From: an uncultured Candidatus Saccharibacteria bacterium
Lineage (GTDB): Bacteria > Patescibacteriota > Minisyncoccia > Phycocordibacterales > UBA2100
Direction of reading: 5' to 3'
Length of the DNA: 64,000 nt
Assembly (NCBI GenBank): GCA_964462785.1
Contig: CAYWZA010000002.1
Location: 1,061 to 65,060 of the forward strand
Position 1 is the first letter of the stretch. Every line of letters begins with the position of its first letter. The notes under the pieces are model-generated. The model did no database searches, was not told the DNA's origin, and worked only from the letters and a program-made list of their open reading frames with translations. Positions 36,574 through 49,487 of this stretch are shown here, piece after piece. The translations under genes and the position numbers were made by a program.

Positions 36574-36642
36574 CGCATGCCTCCAAAAGCTGTCAAAAAG
36601 CAAAAAAGATTGTATAGTGATGAGCGGCAGGGTGTGCAAGAG

Positions 36643-36727
36643 GGAGGGGTGGCAGAGTGGTCTAACGCACCGCACTTGAAATGCGGCGTGGGGCAACCCA
36701 CCGTGAGTTCGAATCTCACCCCCTCCG
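36643..36727 (+). tRNA. tRNA-Ser (anticodon TGA), type II with a long variable arm
   Basis: The acceptor GGAGGGG pairs with CCCCTCC. The anticodon stem-loop is CCGCA CTTGAAA TGCGG. The variable arm is about 16 nt and the T-arm is GTGAGTTCGAATCTCAC. Confidence 0.8.
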
Positions 36728-36790
36728 CAGCTGATCTTTACCCCAAAAAGTGGAGACGGAATACGGGTTTCGGGGGAATTATTAAAAGAA

Positions 36791-37231
36791 ATGTATAAAG
36801 GAATTATGGCATCAATCAATCCGCACATTAATTTCAACGGAAATGCCGAAGAGGCATTCAATTTTTACAAATCAGTATTTGGTGGAGAGTTTACGAAAAT
36901 TATTCGGCTCAAAGATTTGGAAAGTCCCGAATTTCCCGTAGCAGGAAAAGATGAAAATAAGATACTACACATTGCCTTGCCAATAGGGAAAAACTTTTTG
37001 ATAGCGAACGACGTCCCAGAAAGCATGGGGCGAGTAAACGAAGATGAAAACAGATCTAAAATTGCAATCAGTGCGGAAAGCAGGGAAGAAGCAGACTTGT
37101 TATTCAACGGACTTTCAGCAGGCGGGGCTATTGAAATGCCTATTGGAGATAGCCCCTGGGGTTCCTATTTTGGAATGTTTAGGGACAAATATGGAATTGA
37201 GTGGACGGTAGAATTTGTGTCCCAAGGGTAA
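36791..37231 (+). CDS. VOC-family protein (PhnB-like, glyoxalase/bleomycin-resistance fold)
   Basis: INPHINFNGNAEEAFNFYKSVFGGEF and the C-terminal YFGMFRDKYGIEW are typical of PhnB-like proteins. Confidence 0.6.
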   Translation: MYKGIMASINPHINFNGNAEEAFNFYKSVFGGEFTKIIRLKDLESPEFPVAGKDENKILHIALPIGKNFLIANDVPESMGRVNEDENRSKIAISAESREEADLLFNGLSAGGAIEMPIGDSPWGSYFGMFRDKYGIEWTVEFVSQG

Positions 37232-37246
37232 ATCTCGAGAAGAACA

Positions 37247-37720
37247 ATGCTCATGTATATGAAAAATAAACACGAACGGGGATTTGTAAAAATTTTATTG
37301 GCGGTGGTGATGCTGTTTCTGGCGGTGGGGACGATATATTCAATGCGGACGGCAGTGCCGCCTATGGATGAGGCTGCGATTGATGATGCGATGCTGGCGG
37401 AGCGCGCGGGCGTGCGCTTCGCGTGGGTGATTACCGCACTCGAGCCGGATGAGTTTGGCATGCCGAAAGCGCGGATCTCACTTGTTGCAGGCGGCAAGGA
37501 GCACGCACTTGGCGAGTTTGATGGTACGTGTGCGCAGCAAAAAACAGATCTGCTCGAAGGCGAACAGGAAAAAGTTATTTGCTGGTGGGCGGGTGGTGGA
37601 AAAGAAATCGGCGTGTTTGAAGAGGGGGGCGATCTGGTCGTTAAAGTGGGTGATGTGGATGAGGGCGGTGCAGAGACCGGCGGATTCCGCGGCAATTTTA
37701 AGAAGGTTTTGGAGATATAA
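37247..37720 (+). CDS. Hypothetical membrane-anchored protein (157 aa)
   Basis: One N-terminal TM helix is followed by a Gly/Glu-rich C-terminus. Confidence 0.4.
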   Translation: MLMYMKNKHERGFVKILLAVVMLFLAVGTIYSMRTAVPPMDEAAIDDAMLAERAGVRFAWVITALEPDEFGMPKARISLVAGGKEHALGEFDGTCAQQKTDLLEGEQEKVICWWAGGGKEIGVFEEGGDLVVKVGDVDEGGAETGGFRGNFKKVLEI

Positions 37721-47021: not shown

Positions 47022-47131
47022 AGCTTTCTCCTATGATCTGCACAAAGTATCTCTGTGTAGCGCCATGGGCACAAGTCAAGACGAGTTGCGTCTTTTTACA
47101 CACTCTGGTACAGTGCGACAACAACAAATAT

Positions 47132-47581
47132 ATGAAAGGAGTCGTTATTTCGCCAGTAAACATGAAAAACCGAGCCGAGCTCGGTATTCGTGCCGGAGAC
47201 ATGGTGCGCGTATCTCAGAAAATTCAAGAAAAGGGTAAGACCCGCCTGCAGGCATTTGAGGGATTGGTGCTCTCGGTGAAGCATGGCACGGAAGCAGGCG
47301 CCACATTCACAGTGCGCAAGGTGGCAAGCGGGGTGGGCGTCGAGCGCACGTTCCCGCTATATTCGCCGATGATCGATGCGATTGAAATCACGCGCCGCTC
47401 AAAAGTCCGCCGCGCAAAGCTCTATCACGTCCGCGAGCAGGTCGCCCGCGAAGCAAAGCGCACGCTCCGCCGTATGAGCATGGCCAGCATCTCAACTTCA
47501 AATGACGCGGGCGAGGTAGCAGCAGAAGCAGCGCCAGCCGGCGAAGATGTGGCAATTGGTACAGAAGAAAAAAAGGAGTAA
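47132..47581 (+). CDS. rplS: 50S ribosomal protein L19
   Basis: GDMVRVSQKIQEKGKTRLQAFEGLVL matches the L19 core. There is a Lys/Glu-rich C-terminal tail. Confidence 0.8.
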   Translation: MKGVVISPVNMKNRAELGIRAGDMVRVSQKIQEKGKTRLQAFEGLVLSVKHGTEAGATFTVRKVASGVGVERTFPLYSPMIDAIEITRRSKVRRAKLYHVREQVAREAKRTLRRMSMASISTSNDAGEVAAEAAPAGEDVAIGTEEKKE

Positions 47582-47617
47582 TAAAAGCTTCGGACATTTC
47601 AATTTTTTTACCCACAA

Positions 47618-48319
47618 TTGGTAGACGCTATTACCTTGAGGATATGCTACCATGTAGCGATGGGGAAGAGGGGACCAAAGCCGAAAGGCAAAGTAAAAAT
47701 TCGATGGTCGGCTGATTTTGCATACGCAATAGGGCTACTGGTGGCAGATGGGTGTTTATCTCCGAGTGGGAGGCATATCATTCTAGTTTCGAAAGACGAG
47801 GAGCAGCTACATAATTTTAAAAAAGCTTTGGCAATAGATGCACATATAACAAACTCATACCCACTCGCGACCAAAATACGTCGGATCCAGTTTGGGGATG
47901 TTCTGTTCTACCAGTTTTTACTAAGTATTGGGCTCATACCAAACAAATCGAAGGTTATCGGAAAGATACAGATTCCCAAAAAATACTTTTTCGATTTTCT
48001 TCGAGGATCCTTTGATGGTGATGGTTCTAGTTATTCATATTTTGACCCACGGTGGCAATCAAGTTTTATGTTTTACACCTGTTTTGTTTCTGCAAGCAAG
48101 ACGCATTTAGATTGGTTGCAGGAGGAAATCTTCAGCAGACTTGGAGTTAGTGGTCACATCACTCACACAAAAAGTAATACCTTCCACCAGTTAAAATATG
48201 CAAAAAAAGACTCACTTAAAGTATTGAGGAAAATGTACCACTCAAATAAAGTCACATGCCTTTCTCGCAAACGATTGAAAATTGATAAGATGTTAGATAT
48301 AGTTGGTGAACGTCTGTAG
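47618..48319 (+). CDS. LAGLIDADG-family homing endonuclease (double-motif, free-standing)
   Basis: Two LAGLIDADG-like motifs are present: AIGLLVADGCLS and FLRGSFDGDGSS. Local GC is lower than the surroundings. Confidence 0.7.
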   Translation: MVDAITLRICYHVAMGKRGPKPKGKVKIRWSADFAYAIGLLVADGCLSPSGRHIILVSKDEEQLHNFKKALAIDAHITNSYPLATKIRRIQFGDVLFYQFLLSIGLIPNKSKVIGKIQIPKKYFFDFLRGSFDGDGSSYSYFDPRWQSSFMFYTCFVSASKTHLDWLQEEIFSRLGVSGHITHTKSNTFHQLKYAKKDSLKVLRKMYHSNKVTCLSRKRLKIDKMLDIVGERL

Positions 48320-48343
48320 CATTGGAAGCTATCGACAAAGAAA

Positions 48344-48429
48344 GCCCGGGTGGCGAAACTGGCTAGACGTACCACCTTGAGGTGGTGGCGCCCGTTAAGG
48401 GCATGGAGGTTCGAGTCCTCTCCCGGGCA
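48344..48429 (+). tRNA. tRNA-Leu (anticodon GAG), type II
   Basis: The acceptor GCCCGGG pairs with CCCGGGC. The anticodon stem-loop is CCACC TTGAGGT GGTGG. There is a long variable arm, and the T-arm is GGAGGTTCGAGTCCTCT. Confidence 0.75.
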
Positions 48430-48483
48430 CAAAAAACAAAGACGTGGAATGCGAAGCATTCCACGTCTTTGTTTTTTGTGCCC
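48430..48483 (+). terminator. Hairpin terminator after tRNA-Leu
   Basis: The stem caaaaaacaaagacgtggaatgc has loop gaag and return strand gcattccacgtctttgttttttg. Confidence 0.7.
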
Positions 48484-48528
48484 TGTATATATATGTGATA
48501 AAATAATCGCATTAATATTTATTTACAT

Positions 48529-48813
48529 ATGTTAGAAAAACCAAGTCAAGGAGTTGTCGCCAACGAGCCAGTTCCAGGACAAGAGAAATTTAACAGCATC
48601 GAAGGGAGCATGCTGGAGCAGGATATTTATACGAAAACATTGCAGTCAATCAAGGATTTGACCAGTGTAAGCCGGCAACTCGAAATGGAAATTGATAAGA
48701 GTAATAATCGTAATCAAACGATCACTTCTGATGAAGTGAATAGGCTCAAGGAATATAAAAGACGAGTACTCGGTTTTTATCTGGATCTACTAAAGGCAGA
48801 GGGTCATTACTGA
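48529..48813 (+). CDS. Hypothetical coiled-coil protein (94 aa), AT-rich
   Basis: The ORF lies in a low-GC islet next to the homing endonuclease and tRNA-Leu. No family was recognised. Confidence 0.35.
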   Translation: MLEKPSQGVVANEPVPGQEKFNSIEGSMLEQDIYTKTLQSIKDLTSVSRQLEMEIDKSNNRNQTITSDEVNRLKEYKRRVLGFYLDLLKAEGHY

Positions 48814-48839
48814 TATAAAAACCCCGCACGTATGCGGGG

Positions 48840-49487
48840 TTAATGGTGGTGCTCATGCGGCGTCTTTCCAAACACCTTTTTGAGCAGCGAAAGAACATAG
48901 AGGAACAGCAAGCCGACGATGATGCACGAAACAACTGTGTCCCATAGCGAGTTTCCGGTGCTTGCGACCAAGATGCCGCCGCTCACAACTGCAATGCTCG
49001 ACGCAAGATCGGCAACAGCATGTCCGCGCGCACCTTGTGCAGTGAGGTCGGTAAGTTCACCGAGCAGCCATAACTGCAGCACATTACCAAAGCAGCCGAT
49101 ACTTGCAGTGACCATAAGCGGCAGCGATGCCACTTGCGGCGGGTTGAGTGCGCGCTCGTATGCTTCGATAGCAATCCAAACGGTCGCTAGCGTAATGAGT
49201 ATCATCTGGATCACAAAACCGCCCTTTTCCACGCGATGATGTTCCTGCGCGGGTCGATAATGTGCATGGATGCTAATACTGAGTGCAAACGCAAATCCTA
49301 CAGCATCACCAATCACATGACCGGTGTCACCCAAGAGCGCAAGGCTGTTTGAATGATGCCAGCCAAATGTCTGCACGACGGCAATGATAATCGCGATGAG
49401 CAGTGCGAGGGTATATGTGTTTGGTTTGCACCAGCACGGCCCTGCGCGCGAGCAGTATGAGAAGTGGTAGTTTCCATGTTCATGCAC
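48840..49487 (-). CDS. Cation diffusion facilitator (CDF) family transporter, membrane domain only
   Basis: The motif HSNSLALLGDTGHVIGD is on TM2, with six predicted TM helices and His-rich termini. At 215 aa it lacks the usual cytoplasmic C-terminal domain. Confidence 0.6.
   Translation of the reverse strand: MHEHGNYHFSYCSRAGPCWCKPNTYTLALLIAIIIAVVQTFGWHHSNSLALLGDTGHVIGDAVGFAFALSISIHAHYRPAQEHHRVEKGGFVIQMILITLATVWIAIEAYERALNPPQVASLPLMVTASIGCFGNVLQLWLLGELTDLTAQGARGHAVADLASSIAVVSGGILVASTGNSLWDTVVSCIIVGLLFLYVLSLLKKVFGKTPHEHHH

What the first reader, a model, noticed from the sequence alone, without database searches (positions are those of the whole stretch)
47600..48840. AT-rich islet with a free-standing LAGLIDADG homing endonuclease next to tRNA-Leu
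A double-motif LAGLIDADG endonuclease gene (47618-48319) sits between rplS and tRNA-Leu-GAG with no obvious intron or intein host gene. A small coiled-coil ORF follows the tRNA. Local base composition is visibly AT-richer than the flanks, which suggests horizontal acquisition. Free-standing LAGLIDADG genes are uncommon in bacteria outside introns and inteins.
Basis: partly seen in the sequence, partly recalled or inferred. Interest (0 to 1): 0.5.

Follow-up and report, generated by a model that had tools for sequence, protein, structure and literature searches.

The report
Homing endonuclease cassette at tRNA-Leu gene
A selfish DNA-cutting enzyme gene, with no intron or intein around it, sits just upstream of the tRNA-Leu(GAG) gene in this ultra-small bacterium; it belongs to a large, undescribed family that occupies this one site in many related bacteria and appears to move together with a changed copy of the tRNA.

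Summary
A double-motif LAGLIDADG gene lies between rplS and tRNA-Leu(GAG). No intron or intein is detectable. It is the most AT-rich, most compositionally atypical stretch of the 64-kb window. The true start is probably ATG 47660, not 47618.

It is not a one-off islet. The protein has about 2,900 relatives, all in Patescibacteria. tRNA-Leu(GAG) followed immediately in 71 of 71 testable metagenomic loci. L19 (the rplS product) preceded in 53 of 59.

Among species-level rplS loci, 14 of 74 carry the gene. Most of the others have rplS next to the tRNA. Several of those keep only the gene's last 45-60 nt.

Endonuclease identity does not track host L19 identity. Both catalytic aspartates are invariant.

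- A conserved 26-nt non-coding copy of the tRNA's D-loop-to-anticodon-loop segment lies upstream of the start codon.
- The gene's 3' coding end contains the tRNA's promoter.
- The tRNA next to the gene always differs from the canonical sequence in that same segment.

Best reading: a free-standing homing endonuclease that targets the canonical tRNA-Leu(GAG) gene and carries a resistant tRNA allele. The cleavage target is inferred, not shown. I rate it a new variant of a known kind.

The parts
47132..47581 (+). rplS (ribosomal protein L19), the usual upstream neighbour; start codon uncertain (mechanical ORF starts at 47033)
   Evidence: Pfam Ribosomal_L19 E=2.6e-32. L19 lies immediately upstream of the endonuclease in 53 of 59 metagenomic loci.
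47616..47641 (+). Non-coding AATTGGTAGACGCTATTACCTTGAGG: a partial copy of tRNA-Leu(GAG) from the D-loop to anticodon-loop position 37, with one extra base between GACGC and CTTGAGG. Proposed to be the left half of the homing site, and possibly the endonuclease's own promoter or operator.
   Evidence: About 90% conserved over 93 loci, at a variable distance (mostly 13-33 nt) from the start codon. In loci without the endonuclease the motif occurs only inside the tRNA itself. It is present even where the upstream gene is not rplS.
47660..48319 (+). Free-standing double-motif LAGLIDADG homing endonuclease gene (219 aa; stop codon included)
   Evidence: Pfam LAGLIDADG_3. 2945 homologues. AF2 model pLDDT 90; best PDB fold match I-Tsp061I, E=3e-12.
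47726..47752 (+). LAGLIDADG motif 1 (AIGLLVADG, residues 23-31; catalytic D30)
   Evidence: D30 and G31 invariant in 33 and in 49 family members.
47999..48025 (+). LAGLIDADG motif 2 (LRGSFDGDG, residues 114-122; catalytic D121)
   Evidence: D119, G120, D121 and G122 invariant in 33 and in 49 family members.
48275..48303 (+). Sigma-70-like promoter TTGAAA-17-TATAGT inside the endonuclease's last 15 codons, 41 nt upstream of the tRNA. Inferred to be the tRNA-Leu promoter.
   Evidence: 10 of 12 consensus match. An equivalent promoter (>=10/12) occurs in 53 of 94 loci with the endonuclease, against 0 of 94 mid-gene controls. The same 45-60 nt are kept next to the tRNA in loci that lack the gene.
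48344..48430 (+). Complete tRNA-Leu(GAG), a non-canonical allele in the D-loop to anticodon arm (GGCTAGACGTACCACC instead of GGTAGACGCACTACC)
   Evidence: ARAGORN; Rfam tRNA 44 bits. It follows the endonuclease in 71 of 71 metagenomic loci. Divergence statistics.
48426..48482 (+). Perfect 27-bp hairpin followed by a short T-rich stretch; inferred intrinsic terminator of the cassette. It overlaps the last 5 nt of the tRNA.
   Evidence: Fold energy -45.7 kcal/mol, z = -12.3.
48529..48813 (+). 94-aa AT-rich ORFan in the variable region downstream of the tRNA.
   Evidence: No Pfam match. Only itself found in 5.8 billion proteins. The downstream ORFs of related loci are not homologous to it.

Best explanation
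This is a free-standing, probably active LAGLIDADG homing endonuclease gene. It forms a three-part cassette with the tRNA-Leu(GAG) gene:
1. a 26-nt partial copy of the tRNA, from the D-loop to anticodon-loop position 37;
2. the endonuclease gene, whose last ~45 nt also carry the tRNA's promoter;
3. a complete tRNA-Leu(GAG) that differs from the canonical sequence in the copied segment.

Proposed mechanism:
- The enzyme cuts the canonical tRNA-Leu(GAG) gene of genomes that lack the cassette, within GGTAGACGC-ACTA-CCTTGAGG.
- The break is repaired from a cassette-bearing copy. The left end pairs in rplS and the tRNA 5' segment. The right end pairs in the tRNA 3' part.
- The endonuclease gene and its uncleavable tRNA allele are copied in. 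The recipient's old tRNA 5' segment is left upstream as the 26-nt fragment.
- Placing the tRNA promoter inside the gene's 3' end keeps the essential tRNA expressed. It also makes complete deletion of the gene costly.
- The element is later lost by internal deletion that spares the promoter.

Shown here: the anatomy, site specificity, patchy distribution, remnants, discordance with host relatedness, conserved catalytic residues, and the divergence of the resident tRNA.

Inferred: nuclease activity, the identity of the cleavage site, immunity of the resident tRNA, and use of the embedded promoter.
For: Fold and active site:
- AF2 model pLDDT 90. The nearest folds are I-Tsp061I, I-AniI and I-DmoI.
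- D30, D121, Q77, K96 and K182 are invariant in 49 members that share 45-75% identity.

Site specificity:
- tRNA-Leu(GAG) is immediately downstream in 71 of 71 metagenomic loci and in all species-level loci with the gene.
- L19 is upstream in 53 of 59 loci.

Presence or absence:
- 14 of 74 informative species-level rplS loci carry the gene. One of these is frameshifted (L022).
- They fall in at least 8 separate places on an L19 tree, with loci lacking the gene nested among them.

Loss footprints:
- The last 45-60 nt of the gene persist right next to the tRNA in L017 (E=3e-11), L062, L056, L028, L085, L053 and, more weakly, L061 (E=0.02).

Horizontal exchange:
- Window versus L007: L19 82% identical, endonuclease 60%.
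- L005 versus L034: L19 85%, endonuclease 52%.
- Spearman rho between endonuclease and L19 identity is -0.03 over 1176 pairs.
- L068 and L071 are 95-100% identical in their immediate flanks (other mosaic patches lie further upstream). Identity drops to ~60% from the middle of the endonuclease gene through the 3' end of the tRNA.

tRNA-derived motif:
- It is ~90% conserved in 93 loci and is non-coding.
- It is closer to the canonical tRNA (4.7 edits) than to its own neighbouring tRNA (8.3 edits).
- It travels with the gene into contexts where rplS is not the upstream gene.

Resident tRNA avoids the canonical sequence:
- Within 2 edits of canonical in 2 of 94 loci with the gene, against 20 of 55 without (p=2e-8).
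- GGTAGACG occurs in 0 of 94 against 22 of 55.
- Matched to the nearest relative lacking the gene, GGTAGAC is missing in 12 cases and the reverse holds in 1.
- The same unusual tRNA allele (GGTATACGCGTACGATTGAGGTTCGTA) recurs next to the gene in distant host clades: L022, L068 and L073.

Embedded promoter.

Precedent: T4 SegB is a free-standing endonuclease in a tRNA gene cluster. It recognises a tRNA motif and co-converts neighbouring tRNA genes (PMC2330249).
Against: - No cleavage data exist. The target is inferred from conservation and avoidance patterns only.
- The statistics on tRNA divergence are not fully corrected for shared ancestry. The same relative lacking the gene is reused in several matched pairs.
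- No pair with near-identical endonucleases in distant hosts was found: none with endonuclease >=85% and L19 <=70% identical. Recent long-range transfer is therefore not documented. Part of the discordance could reflect fast evolution.
- How two alleles meet in one cell of these bacteria is unknown. No close relative occurs on viral contigs (best 38% identity).
- The upstream motif could be conserved simply as the endonuclease's own promoter. TAGACG-17-TATAAT fits in many loci.
- The HE-like tRNA promoter in loci lacking the gene could be ancestral rather than a remnant, except in L017, where the match extends into coding sequence.
Confidence: 0.68

Rival explanations
1. Domesticated LAGLIDADG protein. 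It would be a vertically inherited DNA-binding or regulatory factor, analogous to WhiA. It would act on the tRNA-Leu locus, for example by binding the tRNA-like motif, and would have been lost repeatedly.
For: - Fixed genomic position and strong sequence conservation: 62-71% identity among the top 120 hits, as high as for L19.
- A conserved non-coding tRNA-like motif upstream could be an operator.
- WhiA appears among the fold matches (rank 12).
- No near-identical copies occur in distant hosts.
Against: - Both catalytic aspartates are invariant. WhiA lacks the catalytic acidic residues (my own knowledge of that family).
- There is no helix-turn-helix domain.
- Endonuclease identity is uncorrelated with host L19 identity.
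- Only about 19% of related species carry the gene, and loci lacking it are nested among those that have it.
- A frameshifted copy and deletion remnants exist.
- The mosaic tract in L068/L071.
Confidence: 0.12
2. Remnant of an intron. The endonuclease was once encoded in a group I intron in the anticodon loop of tRNA-Leu(GAG). The 26-nt fragment would be the old 5' exon. The ribozyme has decayed and an intact tRNA copy took over.
For: - The tRNA-like fragment ends at anticodon-loop position 37, the region where tRNA introns sit.
- Patescibacteria carry group I introns in tRNA anticodon loops, and LAGLIDADG genes occur in cyanobacterial tRNA-Arg introns (PMC13011429).
Against: - No group I intron model matches even at E<=10.
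- The fragment lacks tRNA positions 1-13 in all loci.
- No 3' exon copy follows the ORF.
- The downstream tRNA is complete.
- The reported Patescibacteria tRNA introns carry HNH genes, not LAGLIDADG genes.
- This rival concerns the origin only. It does not conflict with present-day free-standing status.
Confidence: 0.1
3. A single recent horizontally acquired AT-rich island, inserted next to a tRNA gene by some other mechanism such as an integrase. The endonuclease, tRNA and small ORF would have arrived together.
For: - It has the lowest GC and the most atypical tetranucleotide content in the window.
- It is tRNA-adjacent.
- It contains an ORFan.
Against: - The order rplS, endonuclease, tRNA-Leu is conserved in distant genomes.
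- There are no integrase genes in the interval.
- The low GC of the endonuclease is family-wide and scales with host GC.
- The closest relative of the window (L007) also has an endonuclease at this site.
- The small ORF region is not conserved with the endonuclease.
Confidence: 0.04

Closest known systems
Monomeric double-motif LAGLIDADG homing endonucleases of archaeal rRNA introns (I-Tsp061I, PDB 2dch; I-DmoI)
   Same: - Single chain of about 200-220 aa with two alpha-beta-beta-alpha-beta-beta-alpha domains.
- Both catalytic acidic residues are present.
- Best fold match is 2dch (E=3e-12, TM 0.64-0.68). Best full-length PDB sequence match is also 2dch (E=1e-4); an engineered I-CreI single chain scores lower (3e-6) over partial stretches.
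   Different: - Only about 21% identity.
- Not inside an intron.
- Has a basic N-terminal tail (MGKRGPKPKGK) and a conserved C-terminal helix encoded by promoter-bearing DNA.
- The proposed target is a tRNA gene, not rRNA.
Phage T4 SegB (free-standing GIY-YIG homing endonuclease in the tRNA gene cluster; PMC2330249)
   Same: - Free-standing gene placed among or next to tRNA genes.
- Its recognition site includes a conserved tRNA motif.
- Homing carries neighbouring tRNA genes along (co-conversion).
- The site is polymorphic for presence or absence among relatives.
   Different: - A different nuclease family (GIY-YIG versus LAGLIDADG).
- A phage rather than a cellular chromosome.
- SegB recognises the T-arm, whereas here the D-loop to anticodon arm is implicated.
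- No partial tRNA copy and no embedded tRNA promoter are described for SegB.
LAGLIDADG genes in insertion sequences and group I introns of Patescibacteria 16S/23S rRNA genes (PMC11270868)
   Same: - Same bacterial phylum and same enzyme superfamily.
- Insertion at highly conserved RNA-gene sequence, interpreted there as homing.
   Different: - Those lie inside rRNA genes, often within introns.
- This family is outside any gene and is linked to tRNA-Leu(GAG).
- No paper in the searched library mentions it.
Free-standing LAGLIDADG ORFs of fungal mitochondria and green-algal chloroplasts (e.g. PMC7487136)
   Same: LAGLIDADG genes in intergenic regions, without an intron or intein.
   Different: - Organellar genomes, with varied locations.
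- Not a single conserved chromosomal site coupled to a tRNA allele.
WhiA (DUF199), a bacterial transcription factor built on a LAGLIDADG scaffold
   Same: A free-standing bacterial protein with a double LAGLIDADG fold. It is a fold match at E=1e-7.
   Different: - WhiA has lost the catalytic residues and carries a C-terminal helix-turn-helix domain (my own knowledge).
- Here the catalytic residues are invariant and there is no such domain.

Membership tests
LAGLIDADG homing endonuclease superfamily (double-motif, monomeric) | Two LAGLIDADG motifs, each ending in a catalytic acidic residue followed by Gly | tested here: met
   AIGLLVADG (D30) and LRGSFDGDG (D121). Both Asp residues are invariant in 33 and in 49 homologues.
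LAGLIDADG homing endonuclease superfamily (double-motif, monomeric) | Two tandem alpha-beta-beta-alpha-beta-beta-alpha domains packed through the motif helices | tested here: met
   AF2 model with pLDDT 90 and pTM 0.88. Its secondary structure order fits this fold. Top Foldseek hits are I-Tsp061I, I-AniI and I-DmoI at probability 1.00. Pfam LAGLIDADG_3 scores above its cut-off.
LAGLIDADG homing endonuclease superfamily (double-motif, monomeric) | Site-specific double-strand cleavage of a long (~20 bp) target | not testable with these tools
   Needs an in vitro cleavage assay. A candidate target is proposed from sequence patterns only.
Free-standing homing endonuclease gene (intronless homing) | Not embedded in a self-splicing intron or an intein | tested here: met
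   No Rfam intron match, even at E<=10. The ORF stands alone between rplS and a complete tRNA. The upstream tRNA fragment lacks positions 1-13.
Free-standing homing endonuclease gene (intronless homing) | Same insertion site in different genomes, with presence or absence polymorphism among close relatives | tested here: met
   71 of 71 loci have tRNA-Leu(GAG) downstream. 14 of 74 species-level rplS loci carry the gene, with loci lacking it nested among them.
Free-standing homing endonuclease gene (intronless homing) | Phylogeny discordant with the host, and co-conversion of flanking markers | tested here: met
   rho = -0.03 between endonuclease and L19 identity. A replaced tract from mid-gene through the tRNA sits in otherwise 95-100% identical DNA. 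Caveat: host relatedness was measured from L19 only.
Free-standing homing endonuclease gene (intronless homing) | The allele lacking the gene is cleaved and the allele carrying it is resistant | tested here: inconclusive
   Indirect only. The resident tRNA in loci with the gene avoids the canonical sequence: 0 of 94 against 22 of 55 for GGTAGACG.
Intron-encoded endonuclease of a tRNA group I intron | A group I ribozyme flanking the ORF, with tRNA exons on both sides | tested here: not met
   No group I match. Only a 5' partial tRNA copy is present and no 3' exon copy. The downstream tRNA is complete.
WhiA-like domesticated LAGLIDADG regulator | Loss of catalytic residues plus a C-terminal helix-turn-helix domain | tested here: not met
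   The catalytic Asp residues are invariant. No helix-turn-helix domain appears in Pfam or in the model.

The most novel reading that the evidence does not exclude
The cassette behaves like a natural gene drive aimed at an essential tRNA gene.
- The nuclease destroys the canonical tRNA-Leu(GAG) gene.
- Cells are rescued only by copying in the cassette, which supplies a cleavage-resistant tRNA allele.
- That allele's promoter is buried in the nuclease gene, so the nuclease cannot be cleanly deleted.
- The retained tRNA-like fragment doubles as an operator through which the nuclease represses its own promoter, as I-TevI does (PMC2988022).
Probability: 0.3. Interest if true: 0.78.

Novelty: new variant of a known kind. 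Interest (0 to 1): 0.6.

Why it matters
- Free-standing LAGLIDADG genes on bacterial chromosomes appear to be little documented. In Patescibacteria the papers found in the searched library report LAGLIDADG genes only inside rRNA genes.
- This is a large family: about 2,900 protein clusters at 90% identity, and 236 clusters at 50% identity with E<1e-30.
- It has one fixed chromosomal site and a specific, testable candidate target.
- Its architecture ties a selfish gene to an essential tRNA in two ways: a replacement tRNA allele, and a shared promoter.
- It would give a tractable case of homing in bacteria that depend on DNA uptake.
- It would explain why tRNA-Leu(GAG) alleles differ sharply between near-identical genomes.
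- It would add a compact (219 aa) meganuclease scaffold with a guessable 21-22 bp target.

Tried and rejected
- **Intron or intein context.** Rfam at gathering score and at E<=10 found only the tRNA plus spurious hairpin hits. Rejected.
- **Column-by-column tRNA comparison.** It showed no single diagnostic position between loci with and without the gene. The difference appeared only when the D-loop to anticodon segment was compared as a block with the canonical sequence.
- **The small ORF as part of the element.** It is not conserved in related loci and has no homologue anywhere. Rejected.
- **Phage origin.** Viral contigs hold only relatives at 24-38% identity. No support.
- **Exact insertion junctions from filled and empty sister loci** (L073/L080, L022/L027, L026/L020, L047/L054). 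These pairs share only 67-75% DNA identity, too divergent for base-level junctions. Homology breaks after rplS and resumes about 50 nt before the endonuclease stop codon or in the tRNA.
- **Sliding identity on L034/L236, L181/L185 and L082/L068.** The flanks were not alignable, so these pairs were uninformative.
- **NCBIfam.** No named family matched.
- **Other inserts between rplS and tRNA-Leu.** They are unrelated genes: an asparagine-synthase-like gene in L011, and a membrane protein plus a thioredoxin-like ORF in L048. In L062 a retropepsin-like ORF sits next to an endonuclease remnant.
Full report
**1. The observation**

- ORF 47618-48319 (+) is listed. It matches Pfam LAGLIDADG_3 above the curated cut-off, with two stretches. 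It has both motifs, AIGLLVADG and LRGSFDGDG.
- Upstream is rplS (Pfam Ribosomal_L19, E=2.6e-32), ending at 47581.
- Downstream is tRNA-Leu(GAG) at 48344-48430 (ARAGORN; Rfam tRNA 44 bits).
- A perfect 27-bp hairpin follows the tRNA (-45.7 kcal/mol, z = -12.3).
- Then comes a 94-aa ORF at 48529-48813, a second hairpin, and a convergent cation-efflux gene.
- Rfam finds no group I or group II intron, at gathering score over the window or at E<=10 locally.

Composition is clearly atypical. The gene has GC 0.395 against a window mean of 0.521 (z = -4.3), the lowest in 64 kb. The tetranucleotide distance of 47600-48840 is the window maximum.

One correction concerns the start. Homologues begin at MGKRGPKPKG, so the start is ATG 47660. 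The TTG at 47618 lies in a conserved non-coding element (section 4).

**2. A large, site-specific family, not a one-off**

The protein has 2945 relatives at E<=1e-3 among 90%-identity clusters. The top 120 are about 220 aa long and 62-71% identical. The few that carry a source name are from Patescibacteria/Parcubacteria. The window itself comes from a Parcubacteria genome assembled from a metagenome.

Against 50%-identity representatives there are 236 clusters at E<=1e-30 and 2947 at E<=1e-10. NCBIfam has no model for the family.

Three distant homologues all sit in the order rplS, endonuclease, tRNA-Leu(GAG).

A metagenome scan with the family alignment gave 80 loci.
- tRNA-Leu(GAG) is immediately downstream in 71 of 71 testable loci.
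- L19 is immediately upstream in 53 of 59. The exceptions have S10 or unrelated genes upstream.

So the gene is tied to the tRNA rather than to rplS.

**3. Presence or absence, decay, and discordance with the host**

A scan of species-representative genomes with an L19 alignment gave 80 rplS loci from Paceibacteria-type lineages.
- rplS followed by tRNA-Leu(GAG) is the general state.
- In loci without the endonuclease the tRNA starts 0-125 nt after the rplS stop. Four loci carry other inserts.
- The endonuclease is present in 14 of 74 informative loci. One copy (L022) is frameshifted.

On an L19 neighbour-joining tree the carriers fall in at least 8 places, and loci lacking the gene are nested among them. 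Examples are L080 within the L073 clade and L062 within the Kaiserbacteria-like clade.

A profile of the last 69 nt of the gene finds significant remnants directly upstream of the tRNA in loci that lack the gene: L017 (E=3e-11), L062 (5e-7), L056, L028, L085 and L053, plus a weaker match in L061 (E=0.02). L017 also gives a 29-aa tblastn match.

Endonuclease identity does not follow host identity.
- Window versus L007: L19 82%, endonuclease 60%.
- L005 versus L034: L19 85%, endonuclease 52%.
- L068 versus L071: L19 99%, endonuclease 75%.
- Over 49 unique loci (1176 pairs), Spearman rho is -0.03.

In L068/L071 the immediate flanks are 95-100% identical. Identity falls to about 60% from the middle of the endonuclease gene through the end of the tRNA, then returns to 97% right after it. 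This is a replaced tract that includes the tRNA.

One caveat applies. No pair with near-identical endonucleases in distant hosts was seen. Viral contigs hold only relatives at 38% identity or less.

**4.

*(a) A partial tRNA copy upstream.* The sequence AATTGGTAGACGCTATTACCTTGAGG (window 47616-47641) lies upstream of the start codon.
- It is about 90% conserved across 93 loci, which is more than the coding sequence.
- Its distance to the ATG varies (mostly 13-33 nt), so it is non-coding.
- It is a copy of the tRNA-Leu(GAG) D-loop through anticodon-loop position 37. The canonical tRNA reads AATTGGTAGACGCACTACCTTGAGG|TGGTAG. The copy has one extra base between GACGC and CTTGAGG.
- It lacks tRNA positions 1-13, so it is not an exon.
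- In loci without the endonuclease the motif occurs only inside the tRNA.
- It accompanies the endonuclease even where rplS is not the upstream neighbour.

*(b) A promoter inside the coding sequence.* The last 15 codons of the gene contain TTGAAA-17-TATAGT (48275-48303), 41 nt before the tRNA. A promoter matching at least 10 of 12 consensus positions lies in the 75 nt before the tRNA in 53 of 94 carrier loci. None of 94 mid-gene control segments has one. This is the same stretch that survives as a remnant after the gene is lost.

*(c) A divergent resident tRNA.* In carrier loci the tRNA differs from the canonical sequence in exactly the copied segment.
- It is within 2 edits of canonical in 2 of 94 carrier loci, against 20 of 55 non-carrier loci (Fisher p=2e-8).
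- GGTAGACG occurs in 0 of 94 against 22 of 55. In the species-level set alone the figures are 0 of 18 against 22 of 55.
- Matched to the nearest relative lacking the gene, GGTAGAC is missing in the carrier in 12 cases. The reverse holds in 1 case.
- The upstream fragment is closer to the canonical tRNA (4.7 edits) than to its own neighbouring tRNA (8.3 edits).
- One unusual tRNA allele recurs beside the endonuclease in distant host clades.

These statistics are not fully corrected for shared ancestry.

**5. The protein**

AlphaFold2 with 33 sequences gives pLDDT 90 and pTM 0.88, with two tandem domains and a C-terminal helix.
- The best PDB fold match is I-Tsp061I (2dch), at E=3e-12.
- I-AniI, an intein endonuclease, I-DmoI and I-OnuI-type enzymes follow. 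WhiA ranks lower.
- By sequence, 2dch (E=1e-4) and I-CreI derivatives are the only PDB relatives.

D30, D121, Q77, K96, K182, R203, K204 and K207 are invariant in 49 members that share 45-75% identity. This argues for a maintained active site.

**6. Composition**

The gene is AT-richer than its flanks in 59 of 60 metagenomic loci, by 8.6 points on average, and in all 17 species-level loci. Its GC tracks host GC with r=0.76. GC3 is also low: 0.39 against 0.60 for rplS in the window.

Low GC is therefore a property of the family. It may reflect amino-acid content, weak selection on a selfish gene, and embedded AT-rich signals. It is not a timestamp of acquisition.

The AT-rich stretch after the tRNA is a separate, genome-specific ORFan region.

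**7. Most likely mechanism**

This is a free-standing homing endonuclease cassette: a tRNA-like fragment, the endonuclease gene with the tRNA promoter embedded in it, and a variant tRNA-Leu.

I infer the following sequence of events.
- The enzyme recognises the canonical D-loop to anticodon-arm sequence of the tRNA-Leu(GAG) gene in naive genomes.
- The break is repaired from a cassette-bearing copy. This leaves the recipient's old tRNA 5' segment upstream as the conserved fragment.
- The repair installs the endonuclease together with a tRNA allele that no longer matches the target.
- Decay then proceeds by frameshift and internal deletion. The 3' end is spared because it drives the tRNA.

The fragment may also serve as the endonuclease's promoter (TAGACG-17-TATAAT fits many loci) or as its operator.

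The closest functional precedent is T4 SegB. It is free-standing, lies in a tRNA cluster, recognises a tRNA motif, and co-converts tRNA genes (PMC2330249).

The anatomy, distribution, discordance and avoidance pattern are shown here. Cleavage, immunity and promoter use are inferred.

**8. Rivals**

- *A domesticated WhiA-like regulator.* This fits the fixed site and the conserved motif. It conflicts with the invariant catalytic residues, the patchiness, the pseudogene and remnants, and the discordance with host relatedness.
- *An intron origin.* This is possible historically, because the fragment ends in the anticodon loop and Patescibacteria have tRNA introns (PMC13011429). No ribozyme or 3' exon copy remains.
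- *A single recently integrated island.* This is contradicted by the conserved synteny.

**9. Novelty**

In the searched library, papers that mention LAGLIDADG genes in Patescibacteria describe only rRNA-gene insertions. One paper on Patescibacteria tRNA introns reports LAGLIDADG genes only in cyanobacterial tRNA-Arg introns. Free-standing LAGLIDADG genes are described for organelles.

I rate this a new variant of a known kind: known enzyme superfamily and known intronless-homing logic, but a new family, a new target context and a new architecture.

Noticed in passing
window 36601-37441: The only other low-GC patch (<0.44) in the window lies directly after tRNA-Ser(TGA) (36643-36728). It holds a 146-aa glyoxalase/PhnB-like ORF at 36791-37231 (Pfam Glyoxalase, E=2e-10). 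It may be another tRNA-adjacent acquired gene.
   Followed up: partly
window 48529-48813: The 94-aa AT-rich ORF after the tRNA has no homologue other than itself in 5.8 billion proteins. It is bracketed by two strong hairpins. Whether it is a real gene is unknown.
   Followed up: yes
window 48426-48482: A perfect 27-bp hairpin (-45.7 kcal/mol) starts within the last 5 nt of tRNA-Leu. That is unusually long for an intrinsic terminator. It gave spurious microRNA-family hits in Rfam.
   Followed up: partly
L010, L012, L052, L060 (rplS stop to tRNA-Leu start 0-1 nt): In several relatives the tRNA-Leu gene begins 0-1 nt after the rplS stop codon. The tRNA must therefore be co-transcribed with rplS, and its 5' processing would define the mRNA 3' end.
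   Followed up: no
L062 3524-4190; L011 3733-5223; L048 3789-5231: Other, unrelated inserts occupy the same rplS to tRNA-Leu gap. L062 has a retropepsin-like 159-aa ORF plus a small ORF, next to the endonuclease 3' remnant. L011 has an asparagine-synthase-like gene. L048 has a membrane protein and a thioredoxin-like ORF. The gap is a general insertion hot spot.
   Followed up: partly
L001, L007, L019, L026, L047, L064 and window 48333-48340: A short motif CTTGACAAA (window: ATCGACAAA) lies 4-8 nt upstream of the tRNA-Leu 5' end in several loci, including one without the endonuclease. It is too close to the tRNA to be its promoter. Its function is unknown.
   Followed up: no
L068 1186-1555 and 1856-2080 versus L071: Two further mosaic low-identity patches (61-73%) interrupt otherwise 95-100% identical genomes upstream of rplS. 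Recombination tracts are therefore not unique to the endonuclease region.
   Followed up: no
L027 1948-2119: Tandem tRNA-Leu(GAG) and tRNA-Leu(CAG) genes lie 6 nt apart, directly after rplS. This locus lacks the endonuclease and is sister to the locus with the frameshifted copy (L022).
   Followed up: no
L087-L164 (viral contigs): Many viral contigs encode double-motif LAGLIDADG proteins that are 24-38% identical to this family. Their genomic contexts were not examined.
   Followed up: no
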